Positions 13,801-62,373 of a stretch of DNA of 64,000 nt are shown in pieces. The position numbers and the translations under genes are program-made. The DNA is from Owenia fusiformis (taxonomy: Eukaryota): assembly GCA_903813345.2 (NCBI GenBank), contig CAIIXF020000001.1, positions 26,040,001 through 26,104,000 on the forward strand, written 5' to 3'. The notes beneath the pieces are model-generated. The model was given only the letters and a program-made list of their open reading frames with translations, ran no database searches and was not told the origin of the DNA. Position 1 is the first letter of the stretch. Each line of letters starts with the position of its first letter.

Positions 13801-16800
13801 CATTATTCACCCCACACACCTTGATAATATCTGGGGCATGGCCCCCGCCTGCTCCCTCAGAATGATATGTGTGGATGGTGCGGCCCTTGAATGCCTCGAC
13901 TGTTTGTTCCACACAGGAGGATTCATTGAGGGTGTCAGTGTGGATCATAACCTATATGTTCACATACAAAACAGATACATCTTCAATGAGTAACAACACA
14001 GAAATCATGTTTTCAATTCTTTCTGTTGGTTCATGTATGCATGTACATTGACCAATGGTTCCCTGTAGTAGGCCTGGGGAGTTAACTGTTCCTAAACCTT
14101 GACAGGGAATCCTCGGCGCATGTTGGGTACCAGTTTTGACATTTGCTATGGCAATAGACCCAACTTCTAGGATCTGGTATGAGAATGCCCCCAAAATTTT
14201 GGTTGGTATGGGAACATACTGATATCTGAGGGTTCAGCCAAGGACCCCAACCGAATTTTGTATACAGTGAATCCCCGGAGTAGTAGGCATGTATCTCAAA
14301 CTCTGTTGGTATGCACTTTTGTATAAAGATAAAAGTTTTTAAAAAATCATTTTGAAAATAAATTCCTGGCTATTCCTCTTCACACAATTATTTAGACCTC
14401 TATGTTAAATCTCAGGATTACATAGTCATAAGTCATAATATTCATACAATCTCATATAATCATAAACACTATATACCCTAAAGAAAATTAAAGATGGATA
14501 TACCTGTACATCAAGTTTATCAGCTACATTGAGACACGTGTCTACAGCTGCAGGAGTAGACCCCCAGTCTTCATGCAGTTTTAATCTGAAAAAATATTCA
14601 GATAAGTTAGCGTGAACTTTTTTTTTCACATTTATGCTTAATATAAATAACCTCTCAAAGACAATACAATGTCACCATGAAGAAGTAGTGTTACATAAGA
14701 GAAAATGCAGCATCGAAATAAATAACTCTAGTGTCAACATGGAGATACACATGTAGTGTCACCAAACAAAAAGGTGTCACAATAGTGATACAGTTAAGTG
14801 CAAAACCCACATGAGTTATTGTCAATAACCATAACTTCTGTTGTAGAAATACTTACCCTATAGCACCAGCTTTAATCTGCTCTTCCAGTTCATCACACTT
14901 GCCAGAACTATTTGAAGTGTTCCCTTTACCAGTGAAACCAAAGTTCAGTGGGAATGCATCTGTACTTTGGATCATAGCCCTGACAATGAAAATATTCTAT
15001 CAAAACTAGGTATAATTCTGCATACATAAATTATTAGGCTCAATAGATGTTTTTTAAAAACCAAAGTTAAGTGGGAATGCATCTGTACTTTGGATCATAG
15101 CCCTGACAATGAAAATATTATATTAAAACTAGGTATAATTCTGCATACATAAATTATTGGGCTCAACAGATGTTTTTTAAAGTTTAACATTATGTATTAT
15201 CCAGAACATTTTGAATGGTCATTAAGGTTAGAGTTTTATATATTTGCATGGTTTTTCCCCAATATGTTACATATAAAGAAGGCCTAGATTGTAATGTATC
15301 ATGGGCCCCTAGTGTACATTGACAGCGGAGTTAAAGATTTGCGAGACAATTATATTGTTTTACAGATATGTCCTGTTGAATTAATATAAATCATTCATAC
15401 TTGATATGATTAGGACCAGGAGTACATGTAGTTGCATTTGACCCTGTAGCAGGACCCGTGCCCCCTCCAAATATTGTAGTGATCCCTGCAGCTATAGCCT
15501 CTTTAGCCAACTGGGGGCATATAAAGTGGACATGGGCATCTAGGGCACCGGCAGTTACAATCAAACCCTCACCAGCTATCACTTCAGTTCCCACACCAAC
15601 CACCAGTTTCTGAAGTATGGATAGTTGCAAGTGGTTAGTTGACATCTGGTTGAGTTTCTAGAAGGCTCATGTTCAATGTCATGTCTGCTGGTTGAGTCTA
15701 TGTCATGTCTAGTTGAATCTATGTCATGACTAGTTTACATATGATTGAGAATGACTGAGTCCAAGTCATGTCTAGTTTAGTTTAATTTAGTTGTCAGGTT
15801 GAGTCAATGTCATGTCTTGATGAAGCTATGTCATGTCCGTGTCACATCTGATCATGCCAGTTCTCAAGCTGGAAGTTTGGTTACACATTGGTTCATCTAC
15901 TAATTTTCTATTAAATGGCTTATAAAATACTGGAGGAACAAATAAACATAAAAAATATATATACCTCACTGACATTGTCCATTACATCAGGATTTCCTGC
16001 TTTCCCTATATCAACTATCATACCATCCTGAAACAAACATTGCATCAATCTTCAACATAATGTAATCTTGCTTCAAAGCCTTTGGTCATGCTGATATCGT
16101 AGAATAACAGATCATATCAAATAATTTACAAACACTTTATGAATCCTTAAAGACTTATTGTAACAAATACAGCATTCAGTGAAACCTGTATATATATCCG
16201 AACAACCCTCTAATCCGAATACTTCTCAATGTGAACACTTTTTCTCTGACCCAAGTGTGTTCTCTTCCATTGACCTACATGTTAGAAAAACCTTGAAATG
16301 TGAACACCTGTTAATTCAAACAGTTTTAACTGGTTCCATAGGTATTTGGATCAGACAGGTACTCAATTCTCACCTTAATTCCAATGTCAGCTTTTACAAT
16401 ACCAGTAGCAGCATCAACTATGAGAGCGTTTGTTATAACAGTGTCTAAAGCTACATTGCTGCACACTCCTGCAGCCTGGCCCATGCCCTCTCTTAACACC
16501 TAAAACAGATTCAATGATAGAGAACATTAAATTACAGACTCATCCACAATGTGCGTGCATGTATAGATGCTCAAAATGTCAACAACTTGAGATGACTTGA
16601 AAATTCATTGAGGTTAATGTGAATGCTATCTGACCTAACTGGGAAAAAATGTAACATTTATTTGAATTTTTATTTTAAATATTTATTTCATTTCAATTTT
16701 TCATAATAATTTTACATAAAAGAGAAAATCTTTTCACAGGAAAAATCACTGCTTGAATGCCCATGGTGACAGGTCTAAAATGAAAGTCTGGTCACGAGAA

Positions 16801-19800
16801 ACAAAATTTTTTTTGGTCTAACCTTTCCACCTCCAAACTTGCACTCATCGCCATATACTGTGAAATCTTTCTCCACTTCAATAAATAGAGTTGTATCTCC
16901 GAGTCGCAACTGAAACGAACAAAAAATTATTCTAATGTTAAGCTAATGAAGAAAAGGAAATATTTGAATTTTTCATCTGATCTCAAAGTAACATAGCCTG
17001 AAATGGTCAAATTACATATTTATCATTATTTGTACTTCTACAAATCACCGAGATTTTGATACAAATAACATTTCTGTATTAATGCACATTACATAGTTTG
17101 AGTGATAGTACGAGCTCAGCAAAAAGATGGCAGTAAGTATCCATATTTTCTCTATCCATCTTGTCGCTATGGTTTGTGTGTTCATGTTTGTAATAAGACA
17201 AAAAATTTTGTTTCTGTCATGTGTCCCCTTTTTCTGTTCTGGTTCCCTCAGGATTATTAGGAATAAAAGATCTAGGGAAATCAGCACAACGTGGGGGACC
17301 AGAGAGATGTCATGCATTGGTATTTACTAGTATATAAGCTTAGGTTGATAGACTGTTCATAATAAGATGGCGGTGTAGCCAACTGGTTTATATACATGTA
17401 CTGTACTCTCTTTAAGAGTATTATTAACATATGAACTTTATCATTGCCATCATTATATCAGCCTAAAACCTAGAAACGTTACCAACTGATTCTTACCAAT
17501 CTGCAAAGGGTGTATTCACTAATTAATATGAACATATATTTAGTAGCATAACCACATACCTTATCTCCAACAGTGGGACCATATGTGTGGGAGTAATTGA
17601 ACCTAGAAATGGTGCAACAGTCGGCTTCAGGTGCAACTACCTTACTCTGTTGAGCCTACAAACACAATTAGGAATTGGAACGAAGCATGGAAAATATGCT
17701 GAGGTCACCAGCTTGTATATTAAAGCTAGCTCTGACTGAAAGTCCAATCCTTTTACAGTTTGGTGTTTTCATCAGTAATATGGCTGCCTGTTGGTATCGG
17801 GGAAACTGTCCACAAATAATATGCCGTGCTTTGACATATTTACCCGAAAAATATTAATAAAATTGCCCCATCATATTCTGAGTTGGAGTTAAAAATTCAA
17901 CTTGAAAATCCCTCTATTATGATTACAATGATTACATTTTCATGGAAGCATTTCAAAAGATCGTTGTCGGAAAATTTACAGTATTTGAATAGTTATGGGG
18001 AAGGGGATCATTAGCCTTAAAAGCTTTCCGATATCGTTCCTGGGAATTTTACTTGTACCATGTTGGATATAAACTTAGGATTCTTCAGTAATATAAAATA
18101 CAAAAGATTTTATGCAGATACTGTACAAAGATACAGATTGGAATAATTATAAAAAAATTGACTGTTTTACGATATTATGTTAGATATAGTGTGACTTAAT
18201 GCAATGATGCATATCAACATTCCTCAAACACAGTTATGGGTGGGGGGGGGGGGTCATAGATAAACTGTTCAAATACAGATAGTAATCCTACATTGAACTT
18301 TGAGATGCTACCTAATGTATGTACAGTATGTATGTATTCTTTATTTGCGTCTATTTATTTAGACAGTTACATGGTATACAATGATATAAGGTAAAAAAGG
18401 GAAATATAAAAGTTACATGTACAAAAAATTAAAATGCCTTAACATCCTCGCCCTGACCCTGGTTGCTCATCTTTATCTTTCTATTGAATGTCCTTGTATT
18501 AAAGATGAAAAGTACTTTGGTAATTTAAATACAGATAGTATAAATGTTTGCTTCGTGAATTATGTTTGTTTTAATGCCCCTTTAATGGCATCTCATGGTT
18601 GGGAGCTACTTGAAAATATATCAAGACAACATAAGCCTCAGCCAACAACAGTAACACCCACTTAAAGATATAACTACATGTAAGCCCAAATGTTTGGGTT
18701 AACTAGTTCTTTATCACCCTATACAAAGAAATCGGACCGTTCCCAACAGACTAGAAAGGGTGACAAAATTGACAATGTGGGACCAGCGGTGAGAAAATGG
18801 TCCTTAACAGAAGTTGGCCATCATTTTTGAAAAGCTGTAATTATTTATTGATTGAGTAAAAAATATTTAGTAGGTAGTAGTAGTAAGGAATGCTTTGAAG
18901 TTCATTCGTGAAAAGTTCATGAAAAATTAATCAGGATTAAAAGGGCTGGAAAAAAAAGGAAAGACTTATTCTGTCCCAGCTACTATGTTATATTGATTTT
19001 AATAAAAGAAAAAAATACACCTGTCTGAAAAAAGTTCTGTTAATGTTCTTGGTAAATAACTTCATAGTCTGGTCATCATTGTCACAGACTGAAAGTTTTT
19101 TTCCTATAGAGGCCTATCGATGTTTAGGAGACCTCGCAATCAATAAATCTTAAATGAGTCAGTTGGGACAATATAATGATGTCATCATCTTATTACTATG
19201 ACAATACTCTGACATAATCACACAAATGGTCCTAGAAATTATTTCTCTCAAAGTTCTTGATTTACTTGATGTACTGTATAGAATCATTCCCCTACAATTA
19301 GTATAACATACATTACTTATAAGAGTTCATTCTGCTCTCGTCCTAAAACAGCTAGACAGTTACTTGCTTGACATATCAGGCTGCCATGACACGGGTTATA
19401 AGATCTAATAGGACTCATATACAAGATTCATTGTGTTGATGTCAAATACAATACAATAAATATAAATCCAATGACAATCTGCTTTTTATTCGTAAATATA
19501 GTGCACCATTCAAAGGTTAAGTGAGACCCAGACAACGTGCAAGGGATTTTGAGAAAATAAAAATTGGCTACCTTAGGAAACTGATGTAAAAATGAAAAAT
19601 GTGACTGATGTAATTTAATTTTTAAGACTTTCTCAACATCATGGACAAGTAACTATGAGGCAGGCAAATCAACTACTTTCCGAAAATATGTGTATAATTT
19701 GGTTCCATTATTTAATCCAATCAGCTCCCATGCTACTACCACCAATAAAAAATACCCAAACTATGCTTGTAAAAATATGTAATGTATTTCAATTCATCTT

Positions 19801-22800: not shown

Positions 22801-25074
22801 TGTTCCCTAAGATATCGCAAATGACAAAACTGACTTTACACAGGGAACAACAGATAAAAATTATGAAAGATTTTGGAATACTCCACCCAGCTGCCTGGTA
22901 AACTGATCTTTTACTTTTTTTTATTGGGACAGGATAAGTATATTGATCAATCTCAGTCATAATATATATAATATTTCTTATACTAATGTATTTACCAACT
23001 TTGTACCATCATGGAATGTTGCCTCTATTTGAACATCTGGAATCATGTCTGCAACACCAGGTAGAACTTGTCTCTGGCCTATAATAATAAGCCATGTCTA
23101 AAATATGAGGTAGAACTTGTCTGTGGCCTAAAATAACAAGCCATGTCTAAAATATGAGGTAGAACTCGTATGTGGCCTAAAATAATAAGTCATGTCTGAT
23201 ATATGAGGTGCAACTTGTCTATGATTAAAAAAATTAAATCCTGTCTTTCTTCAATAGAACTTGTCTATGGCCTACAATAATGAGTCGTATCTGTCTTCAA
23301 TAGAACTTGTCTATGGCCTACAATAATGAGTCGTATATGTCTGAAATGGAACTTGTCTATGGTCTACAATAATGAGTCGTATCTGTCTTCAATAGAACTT
23401 GTCTATGGCCTACAATAATGAGTCGTATATGTCTGAAATAGAACTTGTCTATGGCCGACAATAATGAGTCGTATCTGTCTTCAATAGAACTTGTCTATGG
23501 CCTACAATAATGAGTCGTATATGTCTTCAATAGAACTTGTCTATGGCCGACAATAATGAGTCGTATCTGTCTTCAATAGAACTTGTCTATGGCCTACAAT
23601 AATGAGTCGTATCTGTCTTCAATAGAACTTGTCTATGGCCTACAATAATGAGTCGTATCTGTCTTCAATAGAACTTGTCTATGGCCTACAATAATGAGTC
23701 GTATATGTCTTCAATAGAACTTGTCTATGGCCTACAATAATGAGTCGTATCTGTCTTCAATAGAACTTGTCTATGGCCGACAATAATGAGTCGTATCTGT
23801 CTTCAATAGAACTTGTCTATGGCCTACAATAATGAGTCGTATATGTCTTCAATAGAACTTGTCTATGGCCTACAATAATGAGTCGTATCTGTCTTCAATA
23901 GAACTTGTCTATGGCCTAAATAATGAGTCGTATCTGTCTTCAATAGAACTTGTCTATGGCCTACAATAATGAGTCGTATCTGTCTTCAATAGAACTTGTC
24001 TATGGCCTACAATAATGAGTCGTATCTGTCTGAAATGGAACTTGTCTATGGCCTATATTAACAAAGTGATGTATAGGACTTTCTCCTGTACATGTTTTTG
24101 TCAAAAAATGTTCAGTGTTGGTAGGTGTTCACTACAAAGGGTGATTCATACAGAAGTCAGTAGAGTATGTGCTGAGGAAGGGTGTTTACTAGAGACAGGT
24201 GTTCACTATAGAGATGTGTTCACTAAGACAGGTTTTACTCTAGTCGGAAATTCTGGGAAGATTTTTTTTTTAGTCTAAAATAATCCAAAGACACTAACTT
24301 AGACTGGCAAGGATTGAAATATATAAGACAGATCAAACACAAAGAAAAACTTTGAAATAATTCTTGGGTTTCCTCTTAAAGCCCATTGAATGTACATTAC
24401 CTAATAATTCACGTCCTTTCTGCATGAGGTCAGCAACAGTATTGGTACCATCCCGGACAAACTCCAGTAACTAAATAGAAAAGGTGATCATAGAATTTAC
24501 AAACTAATGTACAGAGCTTCAGATTCAACTACGGATTTTATATTAAAACAGTCATACATTAACAAGACATCGGACATTGGCTGTACAATTCAGTCAGTGT
24601 AGATCAAAAAGAAATAGCTGTTGCATAGCCAGAATGATACTTTGAGAAATAGTCCTCTATCAATGAAGTTGTAAATTAACTGTATACCTTATATTGATTG
24701 TGCAATCTGAATGATGGAAATGTTTCTCTGTTCCATGATTGAATCACATAGCCTAAAGTAGCCATGATGAGATGGACAAGGCACTTGCCTTGTCACTTTT
24801 TACAGGTTTGGAAATATTTTTGGCCTTGTCTTCCTGGTCACGCCACTGAATAGATTCATAAAATTAATGTAATAATAATATCGTGTTTTGGCATTTTAAG
24901 TTGAACATTGTATACTTACTGATCTCGCCTGTATACATTTGTATTTACCTGACTTGAGATGAGAGCCACTGCCTCAGGATGGTTCAATTTTATGCCTCTG
25001 GCCAACCTTTTCTGTGCAAGGCATCCTGTCTGATGTATCAACAGGCCTTCAATCTCCCTAGGACTTAGCTTCAT
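10893..25074 (-). CDS. URE: Urease, single-chain eukaryotic gamma-beta-alpha fusion, ~860 aa, 21 coding exons
   Basis: Exons (minus strand): 25074-24949, 24470-24401, 23078-22996, 22223-22122, 21856-21710, 21223-21146, 20774-20580, 17655-17560, 16909-16823, 16499-16374, 16027-15965, 15609-15401, 14979-14857, 14585-14504, 13951-13707, 13316-13202, 12971-12882, 12376-12278, 11851-11752, 11564-11334, 11008-10893. All are GT-AG and phase-consistent, 2583 nt in total. Starts [11 protein letters not shown], contains [46 protein letters not shown] and ASDSQAMGR, and ends QRYFLF*. Confidence 0.97.
12600..12722 (-). mobile_element. Partial copy of the 48990-49167 MITE family
   Basis: Shares atacagaagtcagtagagtatgtgcagaggaaggg...tagagacaggtgttcacta with the copy at 24085. 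Confidence 0.6.
14937..15181. repeat. 123-bp tandem duplication containing the urease exon 13 acceptor
   Basis: gtgggaatgcatctgtactttggatcatagccctgacaatgaaaatatt occurs twice, 123 bp apart. Confidence 0.95.
23060..24056. repeat. 46-bp minisatellite (~21 copies) containing the urease exon 3 acceptor
   Basis: Unit tagaacttgtctatggcctacaataatgagtcgtatctgtcttcaa. The first copy overlaps the real exon edge at 23078. Confidence 0.95.
24085..24241 (-). mobile_element. Copy of the 48990-49167 MITE family in urease intron 2
   Basis: Reverse-complement similarity along its length, ending gacaggttttactc. Confidence 0.65.
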
Positions 25075-26624
25075 CTTGAGAATTCAGGCCTAAATCGAAA
25101 AGTCAGCATATATTATTCACGATCAACAATCAAACCTAGTTTGACACTGCAGTGTTTAGATTATGTGCAGTTATTGATGAAAAAATGTTTGCATGTTCGG
25201 TTCGATTGACAGCAGTTCAGGCAGTTCAAAATACTAAAGATAAAAATTTGATAAGGGCATTAAAAGTGAAATATTTGTTTAATGATTGAATTTTTGTGTT
25301 ATAGGCCATTAAGGTAGTTGTTCACTGGCAAAGGTGGCTCCATGCTATAGCATAAGATCAGTAATTTAACAATTTGGATAAAAGTTTAGCAGGTAATGGC
25401 ATTTTTAATTCATATGTTGCACTTAGGTACGAAGCTTTTTCTAGCTTTAAGTAAAAAACAAAGTCAGTGACACTAACTTTTTGATTTTGAAACATAATCA
25501 TGTCATAAACATTTCATAAAGTTATACATAGGGCCTTCAGGGTTACAGCCACCTTAAATATAGTGAAATCTTAATGGGCTTAATTTTAGTGGCTGATCAG
25601 AGTACTTTATCAGGGAGGTACTGTCATATGTTTTTAAAAGAATTATTTGCCTGCTTCATCCCAGGCTATGACAATGAAGAGCCAGGTATTCATGTATTCG
25701 TTTTTCAGATGCAACGTACACGTCTAACAGAAATTCTTTGATTCATTGCAGACTTATTTTTGTTTTTGATATTTTCAATCAAATGGTAGTTTATAATATT
25801 ATACTTTTTGATGGTGGGACAATCAGTTTTTACAATTTCTATTTTGAGAACATTCAATAAAGGCCCAGGTGGCCAAGCATTTGAGAAAAGGATTCCAGTG
25901 CTCTGAAACTACTGTTATTTCTATAACAAAATGTTAGATGCCACTACCAAATTTGTTCATATTCATCAGACATTTTTGTTCAATCGTAAAAACGTTATCT
26001 CAAATTATGTATTTTGATGTAACAGTTTTAAGTATACAATCACGATGGAAAACAACAGTAGCCAATCATGTAAAAATGTTACTTTTCTGTTTCATATAAT
26101 GCATTATTATAGCATGAGCATTAGGCATTAATTGGGCATTAGGGAAAATATACCAAAGTGCAAATAATTTGCCAATATATACATATATTTTCAGAAAACA
26201 CAGCCCCTTTAATATCTCAACCGTTGAATATTGTTTCTTCAACAGATACAAGTAGACGAGTTCAAATTTTATTGTTTGAAGATCACACTCAGGGTGAATG
26301 AAGTACTTCATAATAACTAGACATCTAACTTTTATGTTGTACTTGTAAATATGTTTTGAATAAAAACATCACTGTAATACAATTCCTTATTTGCCTTGGT
26401 CCCTTCAATCAAATGATGTCGTGCAGGCTTTATTGTTCAGTAAGGGTAAATACAACTATAGAAAGAAAATGCAACATTAAATCACGTCACAAGACACGTT
26501 TCAAAAAATAAGTCAAATAAGAAAGTAACGAGAGATTTAATGTGAATGAATGGTGGATAAAGTATTACAACTTTAAAACAGTCATCATTACTGGAAGATA
26601 AAATTTCAAGAGGAGTAATATGAG

Positions 26625-33418: not shown

Positions 33419-36400
33419 ATGAGCACCTCCACTGAAGACCACTGTAACTTCTTAAAAGGTAATCAAGACTACATACTACAGTACATGTATTTACTTTTAT
33501 ATATCCTTAATACAGCTGATCAAATGGCTAGTTTAACTTATATACGGCATGCAACTTTCGGCTATTGGCTACAGAATTACCTACTATTTTATGGGCAACT
33601 CATTCAAGTAATGGTATGAACCTGCCACTATTCCATTCATATTTTAATGAGTTGGTCGCAGAAAAATAAGTTAATCCTTTTGCCGACAGCCGAAAGTTGC
33701 TTTCGTGAAATACAAGTTTAGTTTTCATAAATTAACTAACTGACTACTAAGTATTAACAATAGATTAAATTAACACATGGCATATAGTTTAAAAGCTTTC
33801 ACATTGATGCGGGAAGTCAGTTTTAGTTGCTAATTATTTCCAGCCCCTATGTTGATTAAATGGGATGTTGCAGTAACTGATAAACATGTTGCTCATTCTG
33901 CTAGTCTGAAAAAAAAATAGAAAAAAGATAAATCTGAAAAATGATTTTGGTCTGAAGAATATGTGTATAAAACACATGAAATTAGCGCTTTCAGATATCA
34001 TCAGAAAATATTGCTGTTATCACTAATAGCAATAATATAGATATCAAATATATTGCTATTAGCAATAATGTTGATATGATCAGCTGCAGACTCCATACAA
34101 TTATGAGACACATGCAGGCCTGTAGCCAGGGGGGCCAAAAATTCTTTCAAAATCATGCAGTTTTTCACCATTTTGAGCACTTCTCTTAGCCATATTTTGG
34201 CCAAAATTGTCAAAAGTGAACCCCCCCTGGAAATTTTGGAAAACTGAACCCCCCCCCCCCCCCCCCCCCCCCCTTGGCAAATCCTGGGCCTGACATGTAT
34301 CAGTCAATAGAGTAAAGCAAACCAATTCAAGTAAAAATATATGCATCATATAAGTATGTTTTTAGCTGGTAGAGTTTCAACATCCCAAGACCAGCATAGT
34401 CACGGTGGAGGACAAGGACACAGCCACGGTGGAGAACATGGTCACACACATGAAGCAATGGAGAGTCCTGGCACGTACATTGAGCGTGATCAACCTAAGT
34501 ACAGATCTGATTTCAAACAAGTAAGTAAAATACATAATATCAAGTATTTAAGAGATATAATTTGTTGCAAAATACATGAAATAACAAAACATGAAACAAG
34601 TAGGTTAGATTAAAGTTGCAGATCATTTCTGAACAAGTTCCAGATGCCAGAATATAGTCTATTATATGAAATTGTAATAAACCACCATGAAAATAAAAAA
34701 ATTAATACTGATAGAATATAGACCACCCTGAATATATTTGCCAAAAGATGTCACAATATAATCTTAAAACTACAGTACACATTTTAACATGTTTTTATTT
34801 GAAACATCAAACTCAATGAAATGAAATCAATGTGAAATAATGTCAAGGTCACATTCGCTCTGATTTTCAACAACGGCGCACAGCCAATGAGTATCTTTTC
34901 AAAACTAAATGCAATTTTGTGTTGGTACTGAAAGTTTCAGCAAATGTGACCATAGCACCAGGGAAACAGTTCATTGTTCAGTAATTATAATTTCGAGCCT
35001 ACATGCACAAGTTTTACTGTACTACTGTAAGTCAAATCAATACAGAAGTTGAATAAATGAGTACAAATTAAATTAAAACTTAATGAGATAGTAGTAGACA
35101 TTTGCAACTACTATCCATGATCTTTGCACTCCTAATCTGGTCTATTAATATATAACGTAGATGTCTGTGTTATGTTTGTACGTACAACTAATACTGATAA
35201 AAGAAAGTTGTAACACGTTTGTTTAATTTCTGACTCCTTTTTCTATTTTATATTGTACTATAAAAGTTATTAGTCTAGAATGGGTAACAACTTATGGACC
35301 GAAAATGAAGGTGGCCAAAGATAACATCAACCTTTCTTATTTAATTATCTTAATTATAAATGCAGAAAAGTAGATATTTCTCCAGAAGAGTGCATATTTT
35401 ATAAAGAATAATTAAAAAATATTAGAAATTGTACAATGAGGTTGGGATACTGAAAGTATGATATTTGTGAACTTTTGGTTCAGGCTTATGAACAGTCGTC
35501 AGCAAACTGAGTCCTAAGCCAGATATCTAAAACTAGATGTGTAAAAACAATTTAGTTCACCCATGGGCTTTCAACTAGTTGAAAACCCATGGTTCACCAA
35601 ATCATCACTCAATGGTATACATAGTCTATAATGATTACTAATATGACAAAAAATGACAGCCTTTATTTATGAATACATATTGAACACCCTGTATAGCATC
35701 ACATGTGCTTTCATATAGTATGAAAAATTCAACTTCTGTATTTTATTACACTGTTGTATTTCTATTGTTATAGAGGGCATTTACTGTAGGGATAGGTGGT
35801 CCTGTAGGTTCTGGGAAGACAGCTCTGGTCCTGGCCCTCTGCAATCTGCTCAGAGACACACATGGAATATGTGTGGTAACCAATGACATCTTCACAAGGT
35901 AAATTACCATCTGCTCCTGTATGGCTCTACATTTGCTGTCTTTTTCCCCAATTGTATTGGCACTAATTAACAAGACCAATTCCAGCTCAATGGAGTTGTT
36001 GCATATGAGGTCATATGAATAATTATTTAATTGTAAAATGTTACTTTACTCAAAATTTGAATTAAGGAAATTATTACAGGCATGGCCACTAAAAAGGTTT
36101 AAAAGAATAATATCAATATAATAATGTCTTGTGTGTTACTGTAGGGAGGACTGGGAGTTTCTCACCAGACACAAAGCTCTACCAGATGGTAGAATGAGGG
36201 CTGTGGAGACTGGTGGATGCCCTCATGCTGCTATTAGAGAGGTAGGAATATAGGAAACGCCCTCATGCTGCTATTAGAGAGGTAAGAATATAGGAAATGC
36301 CCTCATGCTGCTATAAGAGAGGTAATCATGTGGGACATACCCTCATGCTGTTATAAGGGAGCTAAAAATGTAAGTGATGCCCTCAAGCTACAATAAGAGA

Positions 36401-38544
36401 GGTAAGAATGTGGAAAATGCCCATCCATTGCCATAAGAGAGGTAAAAATGTGGGAGATGCACTCTTGCTGCTATAAGACAGGTAAATATTTGTAAGATAC
36501 CTTCCTGCCACAATGCAGGAGGTGAGATTGTGAAAGATGCCCTCATGTTGCCTCAAGAAAGGTAAACATTTGGGAGATGCCCTAATTCTGTTATAAGAGA
36601 GATAAAGATATGTGAAATCCCCTCAGGCTGCTATTAGAGAATGTGGGAGATACCCTCATGTTGCTATAAGAGAGGTAAGAATGTGGGAGATGCCCTCATG
36701 CTGCTATGAGAGAGGTAAGAATGTAGGAGATGCCCTCATGCTGCTATTAGAGGTAAGAATGTGGGAGATGCCCTCATGCTGCTATTAGAGGTAAGAATGT
36801 GGGAGATGCCCTAATACTGCTACAAGAGAGATAAAGTTATGTAGGATTCCCTCATGCTGCTATAAGAAAGGTAAGAAAGTGGGATATGCCCTCATACTGT
36901 TATAAGAAAGATGAGAAAGTGGGATATGCCCTCATACTACCACATACCACTATAGATTGAAACAACTACCACATACCACTCTAGATTGAAACATCTACCA
37001 TCTTTTCTTTACATTTCTTTACAACTCCAGCTAAAACATTTAAAATATTATTGCAAACATTTTTAGGATTACTCACTTAACATGGAGGAAGTGAAAGAGT
37101 TAACAAGACAACACCATCCTGAGATGGTTTTTATAGAATCTGGAGGGGACAACTTAGCTGCTAATTTCAGTCGAGAGTTAGCTGACTACATCATATATGT
37201 CATAGATGTCGCAGGTATGTGTCATTTTAAATCATTATGAATAACAAAGCTCAAAGGACAATTTTATGAACTCAGAAAGAATACTGTAATGCATGTTGCA
37301 ATTATATTAAATGAGCCAGGCCACAGGAAAAGGGGTCTTATCCTATGGCCAGGCTCAAATATATACATTTAACAACAACAATGATAAAATACAAAGGCAA
37401 CAATGGACAAACAAAACAACATAATCCAAATAGAAGTTTCTATTATTTCTTGCATGAATCAGATTTAAAACTAAAAGAAATACATCATTGTAACTTTATT
37501 CATGCCATCTATGTGTATTTTGATTAGGAGGTGACAAGATTCCAAGGAAAGGAGGGCCAGGAATTACACAGAGTGACCTCCTAATAGTCAATAAGACTGA
37601 CCTGGCTGAGGCAGTTGGAGCAGACCTTCAGGTAATCTATTACCTGACCCATATCTGTAATCTATTACCTGACCCATATTGGTAATCTATTACCTGACCC
37701 ATACTGGTAATCTATTACCTGAGCCATACTGGTAATCTATTACCTGACCCATACTGGTAATCTATTACCTGACCCATACTGGTAATCTATTACCTGACCC
37801 ATACTGGTAATCTATTACCTGACCCATACTGGTAATCTATTACCTGACCCATACTGGTAATCTATTACCTGAGCCATACTGGTAATCTATTACCTGACCC
37901 ATACTGGTAATCTATTACCTGACCCATACTGGTAATCTATTACCTGACCCATACTGGTAACCTATTACCTAACCCATACAGGTAATCTATTACCTGACCC
38001 ATATTGGTAATCGATTACCTGACCCATACTGGTAATCTATTACCTAACCTATACAGGTAATCTATTACCTGTCCCATATTGGTAATCTATTACCTGACCC
38101 ATACTGGTAATCTATTACCTAACCCATACAGGTAATCTATTACCTGACCCATACTGGTAATCTATTACATGATCCATACTGGTAATCTATTACATGATCC
38201 ATACTGGTAATATATTACCCGATCCATATGGGAAATCTTTATCTGACCCATACAGTATACCAATCCCAAAGCAAAAAAATGAAGTATTATATACAGAGTG
38301 TGATACAAAAAATGTACACAATTTGTCACTCCCAAGTTGCGACTTAAATACTCTTTTAGAATGCATAATCTAAACTTTTTTCAGGTCTTGATTATTTTGT
38401 ATGTTAATTTTGCAGGTTATGAGACGAGATGCTGATATGATGCGACAGAGTGGACCTACCCTGTTCACCCAGGCAAGACACAATGTGGGCATACAGGATG
38501 TGGCAGACCATATCCTCAAGTCATATAAACAAGCACTTAGTTAA
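33419..38544 (+). CDS. ureG: Urease accessory GTPase UreG with His-rich N-terminus, ~265 aa, 7 coding exons
   Basis: Exons: 33419-33458, 34366-34520, 35774-35898, 36145-36241, 37067-37214, 37528-37631, 38416-38544 (798 nt, phase-consistent). Motifs: [20 protein letters not shown]-loop [47 protein letters not shown]. The first coding exon is the least certain. Confidence 0.95.
33535..33718. mobile_element. Palindromic MITE related to 53494-53676, in ureG intron
   Basis: gcaactttcggct / agccgaaagttgc arms and the same internal core as 53494-53676. Confidence 0.6.
34116..34291. mobile_element. Short CAGGCC...GGCCTG element with poly-C tract; partial copy at ~63260-63330
   Basis: caggcctgtagccagg / cctgggcctg ends, flanked by acatg on both sides. 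Shares ggccaaaaa...ctttcaaaatcatg...tttttcaccatt with 63280-63320. Confidence 0.5.
36216..36938. repeat. 40-bp minisatellite (~18 copies) containing the ureG exon 4 donor
   Basis: Unit gccctcatgctgctataagagaggtaagaatgtgggagat. The first copy is the real exon end at 36241. Confidence 0.95.
37631..38252. repeat. 25-bp minisatellite (~25 copies) starting at the ureG exon 6 donor
   Basis: Unit ggtaatctattacctgacccatact. The first copy begins at the exon's last base (37631). Confidence 0.95.
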
Positions 38545-43300: not shown

Positions 43301-46300
43301 TACAAAAGGTTGGTTCATCTGACAAAAAGTTATTTCTGCATTGACTAAACAATAACAGCTAAAATTGGATAATACATACATGTATTGTATGTGCAAATGA
43401 AACATAATAGTAATTGTAAGTTTGCCACGTACCACACATGCTTGATCTGCATGTCTCTGGAATACCAGTTATCGCGTTTGTTGTACAGTCAGTATTCGCT
43501 ACACAGCCTGAAAATCAAATCATACAAAACTTAATCAAACTAAATCAAACCTACAAAATGTACAAAAATGTCAAAAGTGTTTCTATGTTTTTCTGGTCTA
43601 CCAGTAGTTGGGAATATAAATTCTGCTGTGTGTTTTGTTCAATGTGGAGGGGCTTCAAAAAAGTTCTGATTATATTAGTTCATTCAATAAGATTAGATCA
43701 GATCATTTGACAAGATTAGTTAATTTGTCTATCCTTGGAAGTTTTCCTCAACTGTCAAGTGTTGTTCTCTGTTCTTCACATTCCTGACCTAAATTGGCCA
43801 AAATATGTCAATTTTTATGATATCCTCATTTTCAAGTGGGTGCAAATGGATTTTCAGGAAGGTGTAAGCCTATTTTCAAGATCTCAAAAGGGGCAGCACC
43901 CACAGGATATCACGAATATAACATGTGTTTATTTTATGAAATATAAAGAAAACTCTATTTACCACAAACTAAGTCACTGTTACAAACTCTGCCATCTCCA
44001 GTATTGCCATCATTGCAGAAAAAACTATCTGGTAACTGATTAAAGAGGTTTATGAAGCATCCTTTAAAATTCAGAAATAGACAATATAAGTAATGAAGAA
44101 TTGAAGAATTCCCCAGCTTTTGAAGAACTTGAAGCTTGGAAGATGATGCAATCTTTGCAATGATATACTCCAAAATACTTTCCATGAGCCTTACTGCAGA
44201 GGGATCTACAAGTATTAGGTTGGATATGCAAAGGGCTGGGAGTTGTATGTAGAATGAATTGGGGGAGTTTTTTCATGCATTTTGGTAATGTTTTTCATCT
44301 AAAAAACATCAATATACTTTAAAACATTTTATTGACTATAAGATAGCACCATATAATCCAAAAAATATTTCTAATTTTCGAGGATTATCTGTGGATTAAC
44401 ACCCAGGTATTTTGATTTTTCAAACTTCAGAGGGCTACATATCATCATTGATAATTAATGCTTTTGAATAATAAAAATGCTGTTTTAAATAGGTTTCACA
44501 AATGCCAATAAAGTGAAGACGTTCCTTAATCCCTAGAATATTCTGTTGGAGGAAATTCCCATAGAAATCCAATGGTACAGTTCCAAGCAGATTTTGAGAT
44601 AACAGGAAAGTAAATCTGTAATACACACCTCATTGGGTTGGGATATAAATCAACAAAAAAATGTGCACATAAGATGTACAATACAATGTGGTATTCTTAT
44701 ATTTTTTCAAGGACAATCTCTTAACTTTGTTAAAATTATATTTAAACACATAGAGTAGCAAGCCCCGTAAATATATTCCAAATATATCAACAATGGAGCA
44801 TGTTATGTAGAAATCTGCCCACTACTATTTGAGTTATATGCTGGATGGACAGACAGATGGACGGGAGATTCACTATATCACTAACAAAACATTAATATCA
44901 ACCATTATCATTATTGAATTTTGATGGTCCCTTACCACATTTATCAATGGCACAGAAAGATCCCCTGGCTGCAGAATTAGAACCACTTGAGCAATCACCT
45001 GATGTAGTACAACCTAAAAGTATTGAATATTATGAGATAGTATTGCTATATCAGACACCAAATATCTAAACATAGTGCTGTTTATATAATGTGTAACATT
45101 ATAAGTATAATATTGTAAGTGTAATATGGCACCTATGCCACAAAATTTTGTTCACTGGCTTGTCTTAAATAATATTCTAACAGAATGAACTGATTGTTGT
45201 AAATAGAAAGTAATACTGTGACATATTGTACAAAGTATCAATTATTATTCGAGGCAAAGCGTTTTATTGCTGAATAAATCAGATTATAGATGACCGCTGT
45301 AATCATAAATGTTGTGAAAATGTACATTTTATAACTTAAAGACCCACTTTGCATATTTTCAACATTTTTGATTTAAAACATGCACTTTGTCAAAAATGTG
45401 CATGCACTACTAATGATCTCTGAACTTCAAATGGTGTTTTCTATGTGAGTCATTTTTTTCTTGGTTCAATATTAAAGCAAATCAAGCTTTGTGTCATATT
45501 TGAGTGAGTGTGGGAGTAACATGTTTCAATGATTTTTTTTTTTTTCTTCTTAATACGTATAGTGGGCCTTTAAGCAATATTCTGTTCATACATTTAATCC
45601 CTCACTTTTGCTACATCCATGTAAGTCCATTTCAAAGAATTACATTGGTAATTCTCTGGGTTCTTAAAAAAACAAATTCCAAACTGAATTAAACATTAAA
45701 CAAGACTATATTCTCTAACTTTGAGCCAAACTATAATCTGCAACTTAACTTTCCCACCAAACTTAAAATTACAGGCAGGTCCTGACTTTATGTGAAAGTA
45801 ACTAATTGGGGAACAGTGATTTAAAACTTGTCAAAGTTAAGATACCCTCGTTAGGGAAAATACTTGAAAAGCCCTGAGCACTTAACTGTGTCAATCCGAA
45901 CATGTAGAATGAGAAAAAATTGAAAAATTAAAATGCATGATGAACATACCACATACTGAGTTGACACATTTGAAACCATATCTCTCAATGTCACAGTCAC
46001 TGTCAGTTGTACAGCCTACAATAAGAGAAACATGGAATACATCAATGCCTGGATGTCACAGTCACTGTCAGTTGTACAGCCTACAATAAGAGAAACATGA
46101 AATACATCAATGCCTGGATGTCACAGTCACTGTCAGTTGTACAGCCTACAATAAGAGAAACATGGAATACATCAATGCCTGGATGTCACAGTCACTGTCA
46201 GTTGTACAGCCTACAATAAGAGAAACATAGAATACATCAATGCCTGGATGTCACAGTCCCTGTCGGTTGTACAGCCTACAATAAGAGACACATGGAATAC

Positions 46301-49300
46301 ATCAATGCCTGGATGTCACAGTCACTGTCAGTTGTACAGCCTACAATCAGAGAAACATGGAATACATCAATGCCTGGATGTCACAGTCACTGTCATGTGT
46401 ACAGCCTACAATAAGAGAAACATGGAATACATCAATGCCTGGATGTCACAGTCCCTGTCGGTTGTACAGCCTACAATAAGAGAAACATGGAATACATCAA
46501 TGCCTGGATGTCACAGTCCCTGTCGGTTGTACAGCCTACAATAAGAGAAACATGGAATACATCAATGCCTGGATGTCACAGTCCCTGTCGGTTGTACAGC
46601 CTACAATAAGAGACACATGGAATACATCAATACCTGGATGTCACGGTCACTGTCAGTTGTACAGCCTACAATCAGAGAAACATGGAATACATCAATGCCT
46701 GGATGTCACAGTCACTGTCATGTGTACAGCCTACAATAAGAGAAACATGGAATACATCAATGCCTGGATGTCACGGTCACTGTCAGTTGTACAGCCTACA
46801 ATCAGAGAAACATGGAATACATCAATGCCTGGATGTCACAGTCACTGTCAGTTGTACAGCCTACAATAAGAGAAACATGGAATACATCAATAAGAGAAAC
46901 ATGGAATACATTAATGCCTGGATGCCACAGTCACTGTCAGTTGTACAGCCTACAATAAGAGAAACATGGAATACATCAATGCCTGGATGTCACAGTCACT
47001 GTCAGTTGTACAGCCTACAATAAGAGAAACATGGAATACATCAATGCTTGGATGTCACAGTCACTGTCAGTTATACAGCCTACAATAAGAGAAACATGGA
47101 ATACATCAATGCCTGGATGTCACAGTCACTGTCAGTTGTACAGCCTACAATAAGAGAAACAAGGAATACATCAATGCTTGGATGTCACAGTCACTGTCAG
47201 TTGTACAGCCTACAATAAGAAACATGGAATACATCAGTGCCTGGATGTCACAGTCACTGTCAGTTGTACAGCCTACAATAAGAGAAACATGGAATACACC
47301 AATGCCTGGATGTCATAGTCACTGTCAGTTGTACAGCCTACAACAAGAGAAACATGGAATACATCAATGCCTGGATGTCACAGTCACTGTCAGTTGTACA
47401 GCCTATAATAAGAGAAACATAGAATACATCAATGCCTGGATGTCACAGTCACTGTCAGTTGTACAGCCTACAATAAGAGAAACATAGAATACATCAATGC
47501 CTGGATGTCACAGTCACTGTCAGTTGTACAGCCTACAATAAGAAACATGGAATACATCAGTGCCTGGATGTCACAGTCACTGTCAGTTGTACAGCCTACA
47601 ATAAGAAACATGGAATACATCAGTGCCTGGATGTCACAGTCACTGTCAGTTGTACAGCCTACAATAAGAGAAACATGGAATACACCAATGCCTGGATGTC
47701 ACAGTCACTGTCAGTTGTACAGCCTACAATAAGAAACATGGAATACATCAGTGCCTGGATGTCACAGTCACTGTCAGTTGTACAGCCTACAATAAGAGAA
47801 ACATGGAATACACCAATGCCTGGATGTCACAGTCACTGTCAGTTGTACAGCCTACTATAAGAGAAACATGGAATACATCAATGCCTGGATGTCACAGTCA
47901 CTGTCAGTAGTACAGCCTACAACAAGAGAAACATGGAATACATCAATGCCTGGATGTCACAGTCACTGTCAGTAGTACAGCCTACAATAAGAGAAACATG
48001 GAATACACCAATGCCTGGATGTCACAGTCCCTGTCAGTTGTACAGCCTACAATAAGAGAAACATGAAATACACAAATGCCTGGATGTCACAGTCACTGTC
48101 AGTTGTACAGCCTACAATAAGAGAAACATGGAATACATCAATGCCTGGATGTCACAGTCACTGTCAGTTGTACAGCCTACAATAAGAGAAACATAGAATA
48201 CATCAATGCCTGGATGTCACAGTCACTGTCAGTTGTACAGCCTACAATAAGAGAAACATAGAATACATCAATGCCTGAATATCTTACTTTTTGGAATTTC
48301 AATGTAAAATAAAAATACCTTTAGAGACTTCAATGAATGGAGTTTCCTACAAATAATTGAGGCTTTAAGCAATGCACATAAGATCGAACGGGAAACCTGT
48401 AAGTATAAATCGCCCTATACAAATGCATGTAGTTTTCTCACAAAAACAATCGTTCGGTTTACTTCGTCCGTTACTTGACTACACATCATCGTGTACTTTG
48501 CTGATAGTAAAACAGATGGTTTTCAATGATACATATTTAAACATGCTCGTTTCTTAAGATATTTGAAGCTAAAACATGTATGACATACATCACTTTCATC
48601 AGAGCATTATACTATGCATCGAAATCCAAATTGCCAGCATAGTATTCAAAAGACATGAGTATAATGATTCCAGTTGCCACCAACGTGAAATTGCAAATCT
48701 CCCGTTCTAAACACAGATCTGAAACTGATAGGGTATCTGAAGTAGACTAAGTAGTGCTTGTTTTGTCTACGAGCTATATACATTACTGTATAAATTCATT
48801 GGTTTTGCGTTCACGGTTAAGTTGTGAAAAATATAGCTAGCTTAAACTCTCAACTTTACAAATATTTCTTACCACATGCACCTCCACTGCATACAGCACC
48901 TCTGTAATTGGGAAACTGATTTGTATTACTGCAGTCACTATTGGTGTTGCATACTGTAAAAGCGAAGCATTCAATTCATTTGCTAAGTACAGTAAAACCT
49001 GTCTTAATGAACATCTCTCTCTCTAGTGAATACATGTCTCTACTGGACGCCCTTCCTCTGCACATACTCTAATGACTTCTGTATACATTTCCCTCTTTGT
49101 AATGAACACCTACCAACATTGAACGTTTTTCTATTGCAAAAATGTTCAATATACACAGGTTTTACTGTAGTTAATATTCATAACAACTAAAAATAAATAG
49201 TACCGTGGGTACTGGGCTCACATGGTGTTGCTCAAAAGTGAATAATGCCTAAAATAGCAGAAAAAAAAAAAAAAAAAAAGGATATAATTTTTTTGCCGAT

Positions 49301-52300: not shown

Positions 52301-55300
52301 TTATTGGTGCAATCTGCATTAGTCGCACAACCTGGCAATATATGAGTCATTGTATTAGATAAAAAAATCCCTTGAAAATGACTGAAGTTTGCACTAGACT
52401 GCACTAGGATTGAATGGACAGATGTGCAATAGTTTAGTTGTGTGGGGGCAGATTTACGTTATTGTAAAATAATTTGACCGAAATATAGAGGATACCCAGG
52501 GAGGACTTGGAGGATATAATATAAAAAAACTATGTATCATTTCTATCATATAAAAAACTATGTATTATTTTTATCAAAGTGCTTTATACGAACACCTCAG
52601 TGACTGATCATGGTATAAATGAAAAGAGGGGGATCGAATTTTAAACAATACTGAGTTAAAAAGGGTTATTCACAGGGGCTTGTCTCGAGGGTCGTGCAAG
52701 CCGTCCGATGAGTGTGTATGTACTGCTTATTAAGAGTATCTTAAATTCTTTATAACAGTACAGAATTATTGGAGGGCTCACCCGACCCTCCAGACAAGCC
52801 CCTTTGGGGTTATTGCATAGTAATTCAATATCATACCACATTTGCCAGACAAGCACTGTGCACCCAGGCTATCTGGGTAGTCACATTGAGAGTTCAGTGT
52901 ACATCCGCATTTGCTCGAAATACACACTGGCCCCTTCTCATCTATCAATATGACATTGCCACCAGTGGTACAACCATCATCATTCACACAGATCTCTGCA
53001 AGTAAAGAGAATATCTGATTCATGGTCCACTTACAATTCAACATTAGAAATATAAAGTTTTATGAAAAGTTACCTATAATATAAGGATGTATGGTTCATT
53101 TGGTGCTACAAAAGCTTTAAATTTTAAGGGCAATGTGCCTTGATACTGATTTACTGATCCTCCAAAATGATATTTACGCAAGCCTAAAGCTCCTTAGGAC
53201 CAGTTTAGCATAGATGTCAAATCTATATCAAGCTAACAAGATGACTCACAGATGAAAAATTAAGGCCAGCTTGCAACTGGTTGAACTAATTTCTTACCAC
53301 AAATTCCATTCTTGCAGTCCTCCCCTCCTGCGCAATTTGCTGACGAGTCACAACCTACAGACAGATCAGGGGAGCCAATCATATGAAAGTGACACGTATC
53401 ATTAACCAATAAGAAGCACTTATTCACATGATCATTACAACTGTCATGGCCAAGACTGAACTTGATTGACAAGTAGCCCCAAACCCCAATATTAGCTTGC
53501 ATTCGCAAATGCAACTAGCACCTGTTGGCTACTGATTAACCTGCTATTTTATGGGCAACTCATTTAAATATGAATACTATCTGCCCCTATTCCATTCATA
53601 TTTAAATGAGATGGTCATGAAATAGTAGGTTAATCCGGTAGCAGACAGGCATTAGATGCATTCGCGAATACAAGCTTAGATCTATATCACTTTAAGAACG
53701 TTGTCATGTGAGCAGGTATTGATACAACATGTACTAGGATACATGTCATTTTGGTACATATATCATTGCACTTCATGCACAATGTTTGCACCTTTCACAA
53801 AGATATATCAGTTGAAACACCAAGGAACATAGTGGAATGATTAAGAAAATGAGAGAAAAAGATTGATCTTTAAAAATTAAAAAATCAAGTGAGCAATAAG
53901 AGTCTTTTTCCTTACCCAAATCAGCTTCAGTGGCTTTTGCACATTGCCAATATTTGCTCTGTAAGATACCCCCTGCAGAGTTATATGAAGCAATATGTAA
54001 ATGATTTCCTTGGCTAAATGAGTTTAGACTTACCGCATTTTCCATCTTTGCATGTATCCCCAAAAGGATGTGCAGTACAGTCTGCGTTAGACAGGCATTC
54101 TATAGAAAATATGGCAGAATTAATATTGTTTCAGGTCTTTTTACGGAAGCCCAAAAAACAGAAGTTATTTGTTTTACTATAGGTTTGCGTACTGACTTGA
54201 CCAGATTTTGGTCTACCAAGAAGCTGATATGTTCTTTTATTGCTTTAACTCTATGAATACCACTGTTGCTATTTGTAGTTATGTAATAATTTGGAAAATA
54301 CTTACTACACTGGGAATTGTCACACACAGGACCATTTTTGCCAGTACAGTCTGCACCAGTATTACAACCTTCAATCAAAGATATTAAATAGTCAACAATT
54401 AGTAAAATACTATTGGTAGCTTATAAGTAGGTGTATGAAACTTGCTCAAATATATTCAATTTAACACTGATTTGTTATGATATCAGAACTTTTGAAAAAA
54501 AAACATCAAAAACATCATTTATATTTCTTCAAAATCCAGAATCTTGCGGATACAAAAACGTCAAAATCCGAACATCTCCTAATGTAATCCTAATTACCTC
54601 CTAACCTGTCAAAATGGCATTCTGACTAGACAGTCTATACCTTATTAAGAATAATCAAATTTCAAATGTCCCAAGCTTCAAAATATTTCCATAAATCCAG
54701 CCCATCAACTTTGAAAATATCAAGTCAATCGGTCAAACAAGTTTGCTCAAACATGTATCATATAAATAAATCAAGTCAGTAAGCTTAATGAGGAGCATCA
54801 TATGTAAAAACTTACCACATTCATTGGTGCCACCTAAACAGACAACACCAAATCCACTGTTAATGCATTCGAGAATAGTGTTACAACCTTAAAAAAAAAC
54901 AGTATAAATAAGTAAAAGACCCAGCATGATAACTAAATCGCAGAAAACATACATATTAAATGAACCTGTCTAAGTATCTCCAAACTCTATGTAACACTTT
55001 TTAAATGTATTACTTTATTTTATGTTAACTTACCACACCTTTCCTGGGGTTCCAAACATACATCACCCCTGTTATTAGTCAAACATGTGCCACACTCTAA
55101 AAAATTAAAAAATAAGACTTTTTATGATAACATCACCCCTGTTATTAGGCAAACAAGTCCCACACTCTAAAAAATAAGACTTTTTAAGATAATGGACCTA
55201 TTGAGGAAAATCAATAATTCAAAAATATTAATCAATAGTTTTTGAAGTGTTGTATGTGATATTTTACTGTTATATGTAATAATATTGAGAATATATTCAT

Positions 55301-57914: not shown

Positions 57915-62373
<4,459 letters not shown>

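What the first reader, a model, noticed from the sequence alone, without database searches (positions are those of the whole stretch)
14937..55191. Recurrent splice-junction-anchored tandem arrays: six independent runs of duplicated splice sites in three genes
Seen in sequence: the four large homogeneous minisatellites (46, 40, 25 and 65 bp units) and two simple duplications (123 and ~70 bp) are unrelated in sequence. Yet each has a terminal copy at a true exon-intron boundary, five of the six also copy 17-43 nt of exon, and the array grows only into the intron. Four involve acceptors (23078, 14979, 46015, 55096) and two involve donors (36241, 37631). The result is up to ~35 near-identical decoy splice sites next to the real one. 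Where traced (46, 123, 40 and 70 bp units) the decoys give premature stops, and the 25 and 65 bp units shift the frame. Inference: either a mutational process nucleates repeat expansion at exon edges in this lineage, or the arrays tune expression through unproductive splicing and NMD. They are also the raw material expected under the tandem-duplication model of intron gain.
Basis: partly seen in the sequence, partly recalled or inferred. Interest (0 to 1): 0.82.

Follow-up and report, generated by a model that had tools for sequence, protein, structure and literature searches.

The report
Exon-edge minisatellites ("mirages") in an invertebrate
Six tandem repeats in three genes of this invertebrate copy an exon-intron boundary up to 34 times; this is a known kind of repeat (lancelet "mirages", chicken "exon stuttering") that is likely spliced out harmlessly, but here it touches about 2% of sampled splice sites, roughly twice the chance rate.

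Summary
All six arrays are real and end on true splice sites of urease, UreG and a cysteine-rich modular gene. All 84 traced decoys with intact AG/GT would truncate the protein. The class is known: amphioxus "mirages", chicken dot-chromosome "exon stuttering", human F7 and ABCA7 VNTRs. The scan also noted it at eight other places in this genome. "Growth only into the intron" follows from geometry. New here is a test in 88 other 10-kb loci. Locus-unique arrays end on a predicted splice site at 21 of 143 ends against 8.9 expected (2.4x, p=1.5e-4). Dispersed repeat-family arrays show no excess (4 of 79 against 4.3). A TRF-free test gives 1.7x (25 of 1165 sites against 14.3), or 2.1x on kinase-HMM exons. 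The excess is strongest in young arrays and those copying more than 25 nt of exon, and GC content does not explain it. Best reading: frequent local tandem duplication, modestly biased to exon edges, tolerated because the exon-adjacent copy is likely used. One DNA run from another sample lacks the 123-bp duplication. RNA depth was too low to measure decoy use. No support for NMD tuning or exact intron gain.

The parts
14857..14979 (-). urease exon 13; authentic acceptor at 14979
   Evidence: open spliced frame and homology
14935..15181 (-). 123-bp two-copy duplication; one decoy acceptor 123 nt upstream (15102), 45 nt of exon copied, stop in the insert; 3-nt junction microhomology
   Evidence: a contig of DNA run X2 skips these 123 bp
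22996..23078 (-). urease exon 3 (Urease_gamma); authentic acceptor at 23078
23059..24061 (-). compound acceptor array: three diverged 46-49-bp units beside the exon, then 18 homogeneous 45-46-bp units; 20 decoy positions traced, 17 with AG, all truncating; spans 974 of 1322 nt of the intron
   Evidence: unit found only here
36145..36241 (+). UreG exon (third of six found); authentic donor after 36241
36211..36938 (+). degenerate 40-bp donor array, about 18 copies, 23 nt of exon copied; 13 donor-like GT sites scoring above 5 bits; 8 traced, all truncating
   Evidence: unit found only here
37528..37631 (+). UreG exon (fifth of six found); authentic donor after 37631
37631..38253 (+). 25-bp donor array that starts at the junction (ABCA7-like layout); 24 decoy positions, 23 with GT, all truncating
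   Evidence: unit found only here
45950..46015 (-). 66-nt phase-1 module exon of the cysteine-rich gene; authentic acceptor at 46015
45988..48283 (-). 65-bp acceptor array; 34 decoys with AG, 21 scoring at least as high as the real site, all truncating; 28 nt of exon copied; spans 2226 of 2857 nt of the intron
   Evidence: unit found only here
55034..55096 (-). 63-nt phase-1 module exon of the cysteine-rich gene; authentic acceptor at 55096
55060..55191 (-). 70-bp two-copy duplication; decoy acceptor at 55166, 37 nt of exon copied, truncating
   Evidence: sequence

Best explanation
These six arrays are locally born tandem duplications that span a splice site and are likely near-neutral by-products of a high duplication rate with a modest bias to exon edges, tolerated because splicing likely uses the exon-adjacent copy. 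Shown: (1) each large unit comes from its own locus, not from a mobile element; (2) junctions are mostly blunt or have 0-4 nt of microhomology, the same as in purely intronic arrays; (3) the genome is rich in such arrays, and those in unique DNA end on splice sites about twice as often as chance; (4) every traced decoy would truncate the protein. Inferred: (5) two copies are amplified and homogenised by unequal exchange or gene conversion; (6) exon definition picks the site nearest the exon body and NMD clears any leak; (7) duplications wholly inside exons are purged, so boundary-spanning ones are what remains of a breakpoint or amplification bias towards exons. The cause of that bias is untested. 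My preferred guess is recombination or repair that starts in exons, the best-matched stretches between alleles in a very polymorphic genome, and slips where homology ends.
For: Locus-unique units. Enrichment with a locus-matched null: 21 of 143 ends against 8.9; 16 of 51 loci against 8.2 (p=0.003); 15 against 7.1 at a stricter exon threshold; 8 of 112 against 3.3 on kinase-HMM exons; dispersed families 4 of 79 against 4.3. TRF-free test: 25 of 1165 against 14.3 (p=0.007); HMM exons 9 of 338 against 4.25. The excess is 3.3-3.5x where 26-100 nt of exon is copied, 1.25x (not significant) for arrays ending within 100 nt on the intron side and 0.9x farther out. It is 3.5x in arrays at least 94% identical and 1.7x in older ones. 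GC alone predicts 1.05x. Junction overlaps are alike in both classes. Copies differ from each other: 11 distinct of 21, 22 of 34 and 10 of 23 units. DNA run X2 has a contig that skips the 123 bp at depth 53, like neighbouring single-copy contigs, and its eight listed pieces differ from the window at about 0.3-4% of letters, with several indels. RNA depth in the bin that holds the 123-bp decoy (0.93, 0.57, 0.57) fits the 30 exonic nt alone at exon depth 6-10. Published relatives splice normally (PMC3087553, PMC3902484, PMC1557585).
Against: The 28 systematically placed loci alone show no significant excess (3 of 31 ends against 1.5, p=0.19; 5 of 267 against 3.5), so the signal comes from the 60 kinase-centred loci. 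In the TRF-free test, one of three window settings at each stricter threshold was not significant (p=0.11 and 0.058). Exons are predicted, and several hits look false on inspection. Young against old (p=0.08) and many-copy against two-copy (p=0.31) are not significant contrasts. No splice junction was displayed. RNA depth in the bin that holds urease exon 3 and the 49-bp decoys is 1.3-4 times what exon 4 implies, so some decoy use is not excluded. The RNA donors may lack the arrays. In ABCA7 a 25-bp donor VNTR does leak to the second unit (PMC5954066).
Confidence: 0.6

Rival explanations
1. No edge bias: the arrays are ordinary minisatellites of a repeat-rich genome that landed on splice sites by chance, and this window is a selected high tail.
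For: About 1.2% of unique non-coding 30-mers are already terminal copies of a tandem duplication (14.3 expected of 1165). The systematic loci alone are not significant. Under equal filters the window's rate (4 of 102 sites) does not differ from the kinase loci (18 of 958; p=0.15).
Against: Two methods, several thresholds, a locus-matched null and HMM-validated exons all give 1.4-2.4x, most of them significant. Dispersed arrays give 0.9x. The excess rises with the amount of exon copied.
Confidence: 0.18
2. Persistence bias: duplications arise evenly, but those anchored on an exon stay recognisable longer because the terminal copy cannot be deleted or diverge.
For: Predicts more excess with more exon copied, as seen. 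In the 46-bp array the exon-side units differ from the homogenised core (63-78% identity).
Against: Predicts the excess in old arrays, but it is larger in young ones (11 against 3.1 versus 10 against 5.8; contrast p=0.08). By my reasoning it gives at most about 2x, against 3.3-3.5x seen for 26-100 nt of exon.
Confidence: 0.1
3. The arrays are kept to tune expression: decoy use sends transcripts to NMD, and copy number sets the dose.
For: All 84 traced intact decoys truncate the protein, and 33 of them score at least as high as the real site. The ABCA7 VNTR has such an effect (PMC5954066 passages). The exon-3 bin shows some excess RNA depth.
Against: Stops are the default in 33%-GC intron. The arrays are young and unrelated, one appears absent in another sample, and they occur in unrelated genes. 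No depth excess is seen at the 123-bp decoy. No aberrant mRNA was reported for amphioxus mirages or F7 pseudo-sites.
Confidence: 0.07
4. The arrays are intermediates of intron gain.
For: PMC3087553 proposes that a mirage exon piece can become a new exon if an acceptor exists or arises inside the old exon.
Against: None of the six copied exon parts holds an internal AGGT, and AG|GT decoys in the 40-bp array score -7.9 to 1.3 bits as acceptors against a median of 7.2 for real ones. The duplications span an existing junction rather than lying inside an exon (PMC3443670 passages).
Confidence: 0.03
5. Assembly artefacts.
For: No long reads were examined, and one DNA run lacks the 123-bp copy.
Against: Copies carry distinct variants and length classes (63, 65 and 89 nt; 45, 46 and 49 nt) and graded divergence towards the exon. 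The same layout recurs on many contigs.
Confidence: 0.02

Closest known systems
Amphioxus 'mirage' minisatellites (Adh3, troponin C, globins BflGb6/BflGb9, PGBD5; PMC3087553 section 16 read, PMC3902484 passages read; Canestro et al. 2002 not seen, known only through these papers and recall)
   Same: The unit spans an exon-intron boundary at either end; units of 10-160 bp; many keep AG/GT; copy number differs between haplotypes; edge units escape homogenisation.
   Different: Here in a non-chordate (urease only 72% identical to Branchiostoma), with a measured rate (about 2% of sites) and a measured excess over intronic background. Normal splicing is only weakly supported here.
Exon stuttering on chicken dot chromosomes (PMC12954441; abstract, section 7 part 2, section 9 and passages read)
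   Same: Local expansions that copy an exon edge and its splice site into the intron; exon part 20-187 bp (median 36); 1-44 copies; 190 of 5572 dot-chromosome introns (3.4%); length-variable in the population.
   Different: There it is tied to GC-rich, G4-prone dot chromosomes. Here it occurs in AT-rich DNA (units about 35% GC) on many large contigs, at a similar per-intron rate (about 2% per site, so about 4% per intron; inference). The passages I read used shuffled introns as control, not intronic duplications.
Human F7 intron 7 37-bp VNTR (PMC1557585; abstract and discussion read)
   Same: The first unit holds the true donor; identical downstream pseudo-sites are functional but unused because position decides.
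   Different: Donor side only. Four of the six here are acceptor arrays, where the last copy, not the first AG, must be chosen.
Human ABCA7 intron 18 25-bp VNTR (PMC5954066; passages read)
   Same: A 25-bp unit that begins at the donor GT, like the UreG array at 37631; use of the next unit shifts the frame.
   Different: Leak and a length effect are shown for ABCA7; neither is tested for UreG.
Intron gain by tandem genomic duplication (Rogers model; PMC3443670 passages read)
   Same: Tandem duplication of splice-like sequence.
   Different: Needs an exon-internal AGGT segment; these arrays copy an existing junction and hold no internal AGGT.

Membership tests
Mirage minisatellite / exon stuttering | Head-to-tail repeat whose unit spans an authentic exon-intron boundary | tested here: met
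   6 of 6; the 25-bp array copies only 1-3 exonic nt
Mirage minisatellite / exon stuttering | Copies keep potential splice signals | tested here: met
   84 of 89 traced decoy positions keep AG or GT
Mirage minisatellite / exon stuttering | Local origin from unique sequence; coding region intact | tested here: met
   The four large units match only at their locus; open frames. The two simple duplications were not searched.
Mirage minisatellite / exon stuttering | Length variation between alleles or individuals | tested here: inconclusive
Mirage minisatellite / exon stuttering | Normal splicing with no aberrant mRNA | tested here: inconclusive
   Binned RNA depth fits the real acceptor at 14979; ambiguous at 23078; no junction rows were shown
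Chicken dot-chromosome stuttering (strict sense) | GC-rich sequence on dot microchromosomes | tested here: not met
   Window GC 0.29-0.42; contig of 62 Mb; units about 35% GC
Regulated unproductive splicing (AS-NMD) | Alternative site gives a premature stop | tested here: met
   84 of 84 intact decoys truncate
Regulated unproductive splicing (AS-NMD) | The decoy is used, regulated, NMD-sensitive and conserved | not testable with these tools
   No NMD-blocked RNA and no related genomes were available
Intron gain by tandem genomic duplication | Exon-internal duplicated segment that holds AGGT | tested here: not met
   0 of 6 copied exon parts
Transposon-borne tandem repeat | Unit dispersed at many loci | tested here: not met
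   contrast the 162-bp family at 9184-9903, seen at many loci

The most novel reading that the evidence does not exclude
In very polymorphic animal genomes, tandem duplication or its amplification is actively directed at exon edges (3-4x for young arrays that copy more than 25 nt of exon), because recombination or repair starts in allele-matched exons and slips where homology ends. This would put thousands of decoy splice sites into this genome and would join amphioxus mirages and bird exon stuttering under one GC-independent mechanism.
Probability: 0.25. Interest if true: 0.7.

Novelty: new member of a known kind. Interest (0 to 1): 0.42.

Why it matters
The structure is known, but the amphioxus and chicken papers I read call its mechanism unclear or speculative. 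This genome shows it in AT-rich DNA at a per-intron rate like that of chicken dot chromosomes, so high GC and G-quadruplexes are not required. The measured excess over intronic background suggests that exon edges are weak hotspots of tandem duplication or amplification. The acceptor arrays are natural experiments on how the last of up to 35 near-identical 3' splice sites is chosen. In practice such arrays can mislead gene annotation and inflate intron size: the four large arrays span 74-78% of their introns.

Tried and rejected
GC-driven birth of arrays: rejected (44 non-coding units 32.9% GC against 32.3% background, p=0.57; predicted fold 1.05). Link to CpG depletion: none (loci with hits o/e 0.39 against 0.41, p=0.56). 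A special junction signature: none. Acceptor bias: 14 acceptors against 8 donors with about equal expectation; not formally tested and not claimed. Recursive-splicing reading of the 40-bp array: acceptor scores too low. Persistence-only model: disfavoured by the age pattern. wrongly classed some arrays longer than 1.5 kb as dispersed; this was corrected, whose numbers are the ones reported. No RNA holder was listed for 15900-24400, which is no evidence on expression. The RNA lay showed no splice-junction rows (15 shown, 46 hidden). The urease tree is a quick, unfinished tree and does not place the organism. Pfam found no family for the four cysteine-rich-gene exons tested, for urease exon 13 or for the UreG exon at 36146. 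The original mirage paper was not held under the DOI I recalled. Nine literature searches listed no title or abstract start that tests enrichment against intronic duplications or reports mirages in an annelid; most hits were seen only as listings, subscription papers are largely missing and no supplements were read.
Full report
Observation. TRF reports five of the six arrays at the stated places. The sixth, a 70-bp duplication at 55060-55191, is seen in the sequence and traced. I annotated 102 splice sites in four genes by hand. These are urease (minus strand, 21 exons, 860 aa, no internal stop), UreG (plus strand, six exons found, first exon not located), a cysteine-rich gene of phase-1 module exons with a signal-peptide-like start (minus strand; first 20 exons join without a stop; no Pfam family for the four exons tested) and an LZIC-like gene (name recalled). 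All six arrays have their terminal copy on one of these sites. The organism is an invertebrate: urease is 66-74% identical to full-length proteins of several phyla and 81% to a C-terminal fragment from the annelid Lamellibrachia, and the quick tree is unresolved. Earlier notes of the scan call it an annelid (not verified here).

Anatomy. Exon copied per decoy is about 18-21 nt (46/49-bp), 45 nt (123-bp), 28 nt (65-bp), 37 nt (70-bp), 23 nt (40-bp) and 1-3 nt (25-bp). Of 89 traced decoy positions 84 keep AG or GT. All 84 give a premature stop, and 33 score at least as high as the real site under a matrix trained on the other 48 acceptors and 48 donors. The context match traced 9 positions in the degenerate 40-bp array; a wider scan finds 13 donor-like sites. 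Copies are not identical (11 distinct of 21, 22 of 34, 10 of 23), and the three units next to urease exon 3 are only 63-69% like the core, with the next at 78%. This is ordinary array turnover and is unlike an assembly duplication. The four large units match only at their own locus. That the arrays 'grow only into the intron' is not separate evidence: if a unit spans a junction and the gene keeps a complete exon, every extra copy lies in the intron.

Is it more than chance? In the window 4 of 8 filtered unique arrays hit a site against 0.88 expected, but the window was chosen for this. I therefore fetched 88 other 10-kb loci blind to repeats: 60 centred on short Pkinase matches, and 28 of 40 planned round-number positions. 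Exons were predicted with splice matrices and a coding model trained on the window and on long kinase frames from L001-L030, which were not tested. At the threshold used the predictor recovered 158 of 187 kinase-HMM segments, with 296 same-strand against 22 opposite-strand calls near them. Of 1194 TRF clusters, 126 passed fixed filters (period at least 20, at least 1.9 copies, at least 78% matches, score at least 100), 117 of them outside the window; ends within 200 bp of a locus edge were dropped. With a null drawn from unique, non-array DNA of the same locus, 21 of 143 ends of 76 unique arrays sat on a predicted site against 8.9 expected (2.4x, p=1.5e-4). Per locus it was 16 of 51 against 8.2; on HMM exons 8 of 112 against 3.3; all 117 arrays 25 of 222 against 13.2; 41 dispersed-family arrays 4 of 79 against 4.3. 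A TRF-free test (does a 30-mer across the junction have a copy 20-300 nt into the intron?) gave 25 of 1165 against 14.3 (1.7x, p=0.007) and 9-10 of 338 against 4.25 on HMM exons. At stricter thresholds it gave 1.4-1.8x, with two of six settings not significant. The systematic loci alone were not significant in either test. Inspection shows many hits at unmistakable kinase exons and a few false ones; false calls also enter the null. Subgroup p-values are uncorrected. So about 2% of splice sites carry such a duplication, about half of them expected by chance, and this window (4-6 of 102) is a high tail.

What drives the excess? It is 3.3-3.5x where 26-100 nt of exon is copied, 1.4x for 0-25 nt, 1.25x within 100 nt on the intron side and 0.9x beyond. 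It is 3.5x in arrays at least 94% identical and 1.7x in older ones, and 2.95x with three or more copies against 1.3x with fewer (these contrasts are not themselves significant). GC and CpG depletion do not explain it. Junction overlaps are similar in both classes, mostly blunt or 0-4 nt. This pattern fits a bias in birth or amplification better than slower decay or adaptive retention. The homology-boundary idea is my inference. It rests on the high divergence of another sample (about 0.3-4% of letters in eight listed pieces, plus several intronic indels) and on recalled high polymorphism in amphioxus.

Reads. One lay covered 10800-23240, so only the 123-bp duplication and the 49-bp copies were examined; the long arrays were not. 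Three stranded RNA runs show urease transcribed from the minus strand at depth about 5-25. The bin with the 123-bp decoy has mean depth 0.93, 0.57 and 0.57, close to what its 30 exonic nt give at exon depth 6-10 and far below the roughly 2-4 expected if the decoy were the main site. The bin with exon 3 is 1.3-4 times higher than exon 4 implies, which is ambiguous. No splice-junction rows were displayed. A contig of DNA run X2 joins 15036 to 15160 at depth 53.2, like its neighbours, which suggests an allele without the duplication, though collapse is possible.

Known systems. PMC3087553 (section 16 read) and PMC3902484 (passages) describe amphioxus mirages: boundary-spanning tandem repeats, unstable in length, with no aberrant mRNA and an unclear mechanism. 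PMC12954441 (abstract, part of section 7, discussion, passages) describes exon stuttering in 3.4% of chicken dot-chromosome introns and links it to high GC. PMC1557585 (abstract, discussion) shows that F7 pseudo-donors are functional but unused because the most upstream one wins. PMC5954066 (passages) shows leak to the second unit of the ABCA7 25-bp VNTR. PMC3443670 (passages) gives the AGGT requirement for intron gain. PMC10078293 and PMC12783039 (passages) added nothing on boundary-spanning arrays. No supplements were read; they could hold further cases.

Verdict. Real, and a new member of a known kind. The regulatory and intron-gain readings lack support. The added value is quantitative: a modest exon-edge excess in AT-rich DNA at a rate like that of bird dot chromosomes. 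Interest 0.42.

Noticed in passing
window 10893-25074 (-) and 34366-38544 (+): Urease and its accessory GTPase UreG lie head to head about 9 kb apart, a linked pair in an animal genome; the first UreG exon was not located.
   Followed up: partly
window 37628-37647: The real donor of the 25-bp array lies in an 8-bp hairpin (-8.3 kcal/mol); the first decoy does not fold. Most later units keep a shorter inverted repeat.
   Followed up: partly
window 42049-42786: Fold-back array in an intron: about 24 copies of a 15-bp pyrimidine-rich unit followed by about 26 copies of its reverse complement; possibly a fold-back element.
   Followed up: no
window 9184-9903; L046, L063, L072, L103, L112: A 162-bp tandem family dispersed across the genome, probably carried by a mobile element; part of the negative control.
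   Followed up: partly
window 40381-56207 (-): Cysteine-rich protein with a signal-peptide-like start, built from about 18 phase-1 module exons and a C-terminal region; no Pfam hit for four exons tested. Possible extra exons near 53916-53972 and 41880-41930.
   Followed up: partly
L116:4680-10000 and L070:7280-10000: Very long homogeneous arrays (102 bp x more than 51; 69 bp x more than 39) that run off the locus end. The first unit holds both an acceptor-like and a donor-like site around 29 nt; the second holds a donor-like site. Their far ends could not be scored.
   Followed up: no
L032, L035, L067, L088: Several kinase genes carry two or three independent boundary arrays within 10 kb (PKA-, PAK-, AKT- and CASK-like; names recalled from motifs), suggesting regional hotspots.
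   Followed up: partly
L078 (G000:C10:2256896-2257205): Two Pkinase matches to the same profile segment 178 bp apart, a possible duplicated exon, in a locus that also has a 94-bp x7 acceptor array.
   Followed up: no
window 14609-14711, 15728-15874, 17843-17910: Further intronic insertion, deletion or replacement differences in DNA run X2.
   Followed up: no
window 5374-5628 (+) and 57914-62327 (-): A Pcc1-family gene and an LZIC-like gene (name recalled); neither has a boundary array among the annotated sites.
   Followed up: partly
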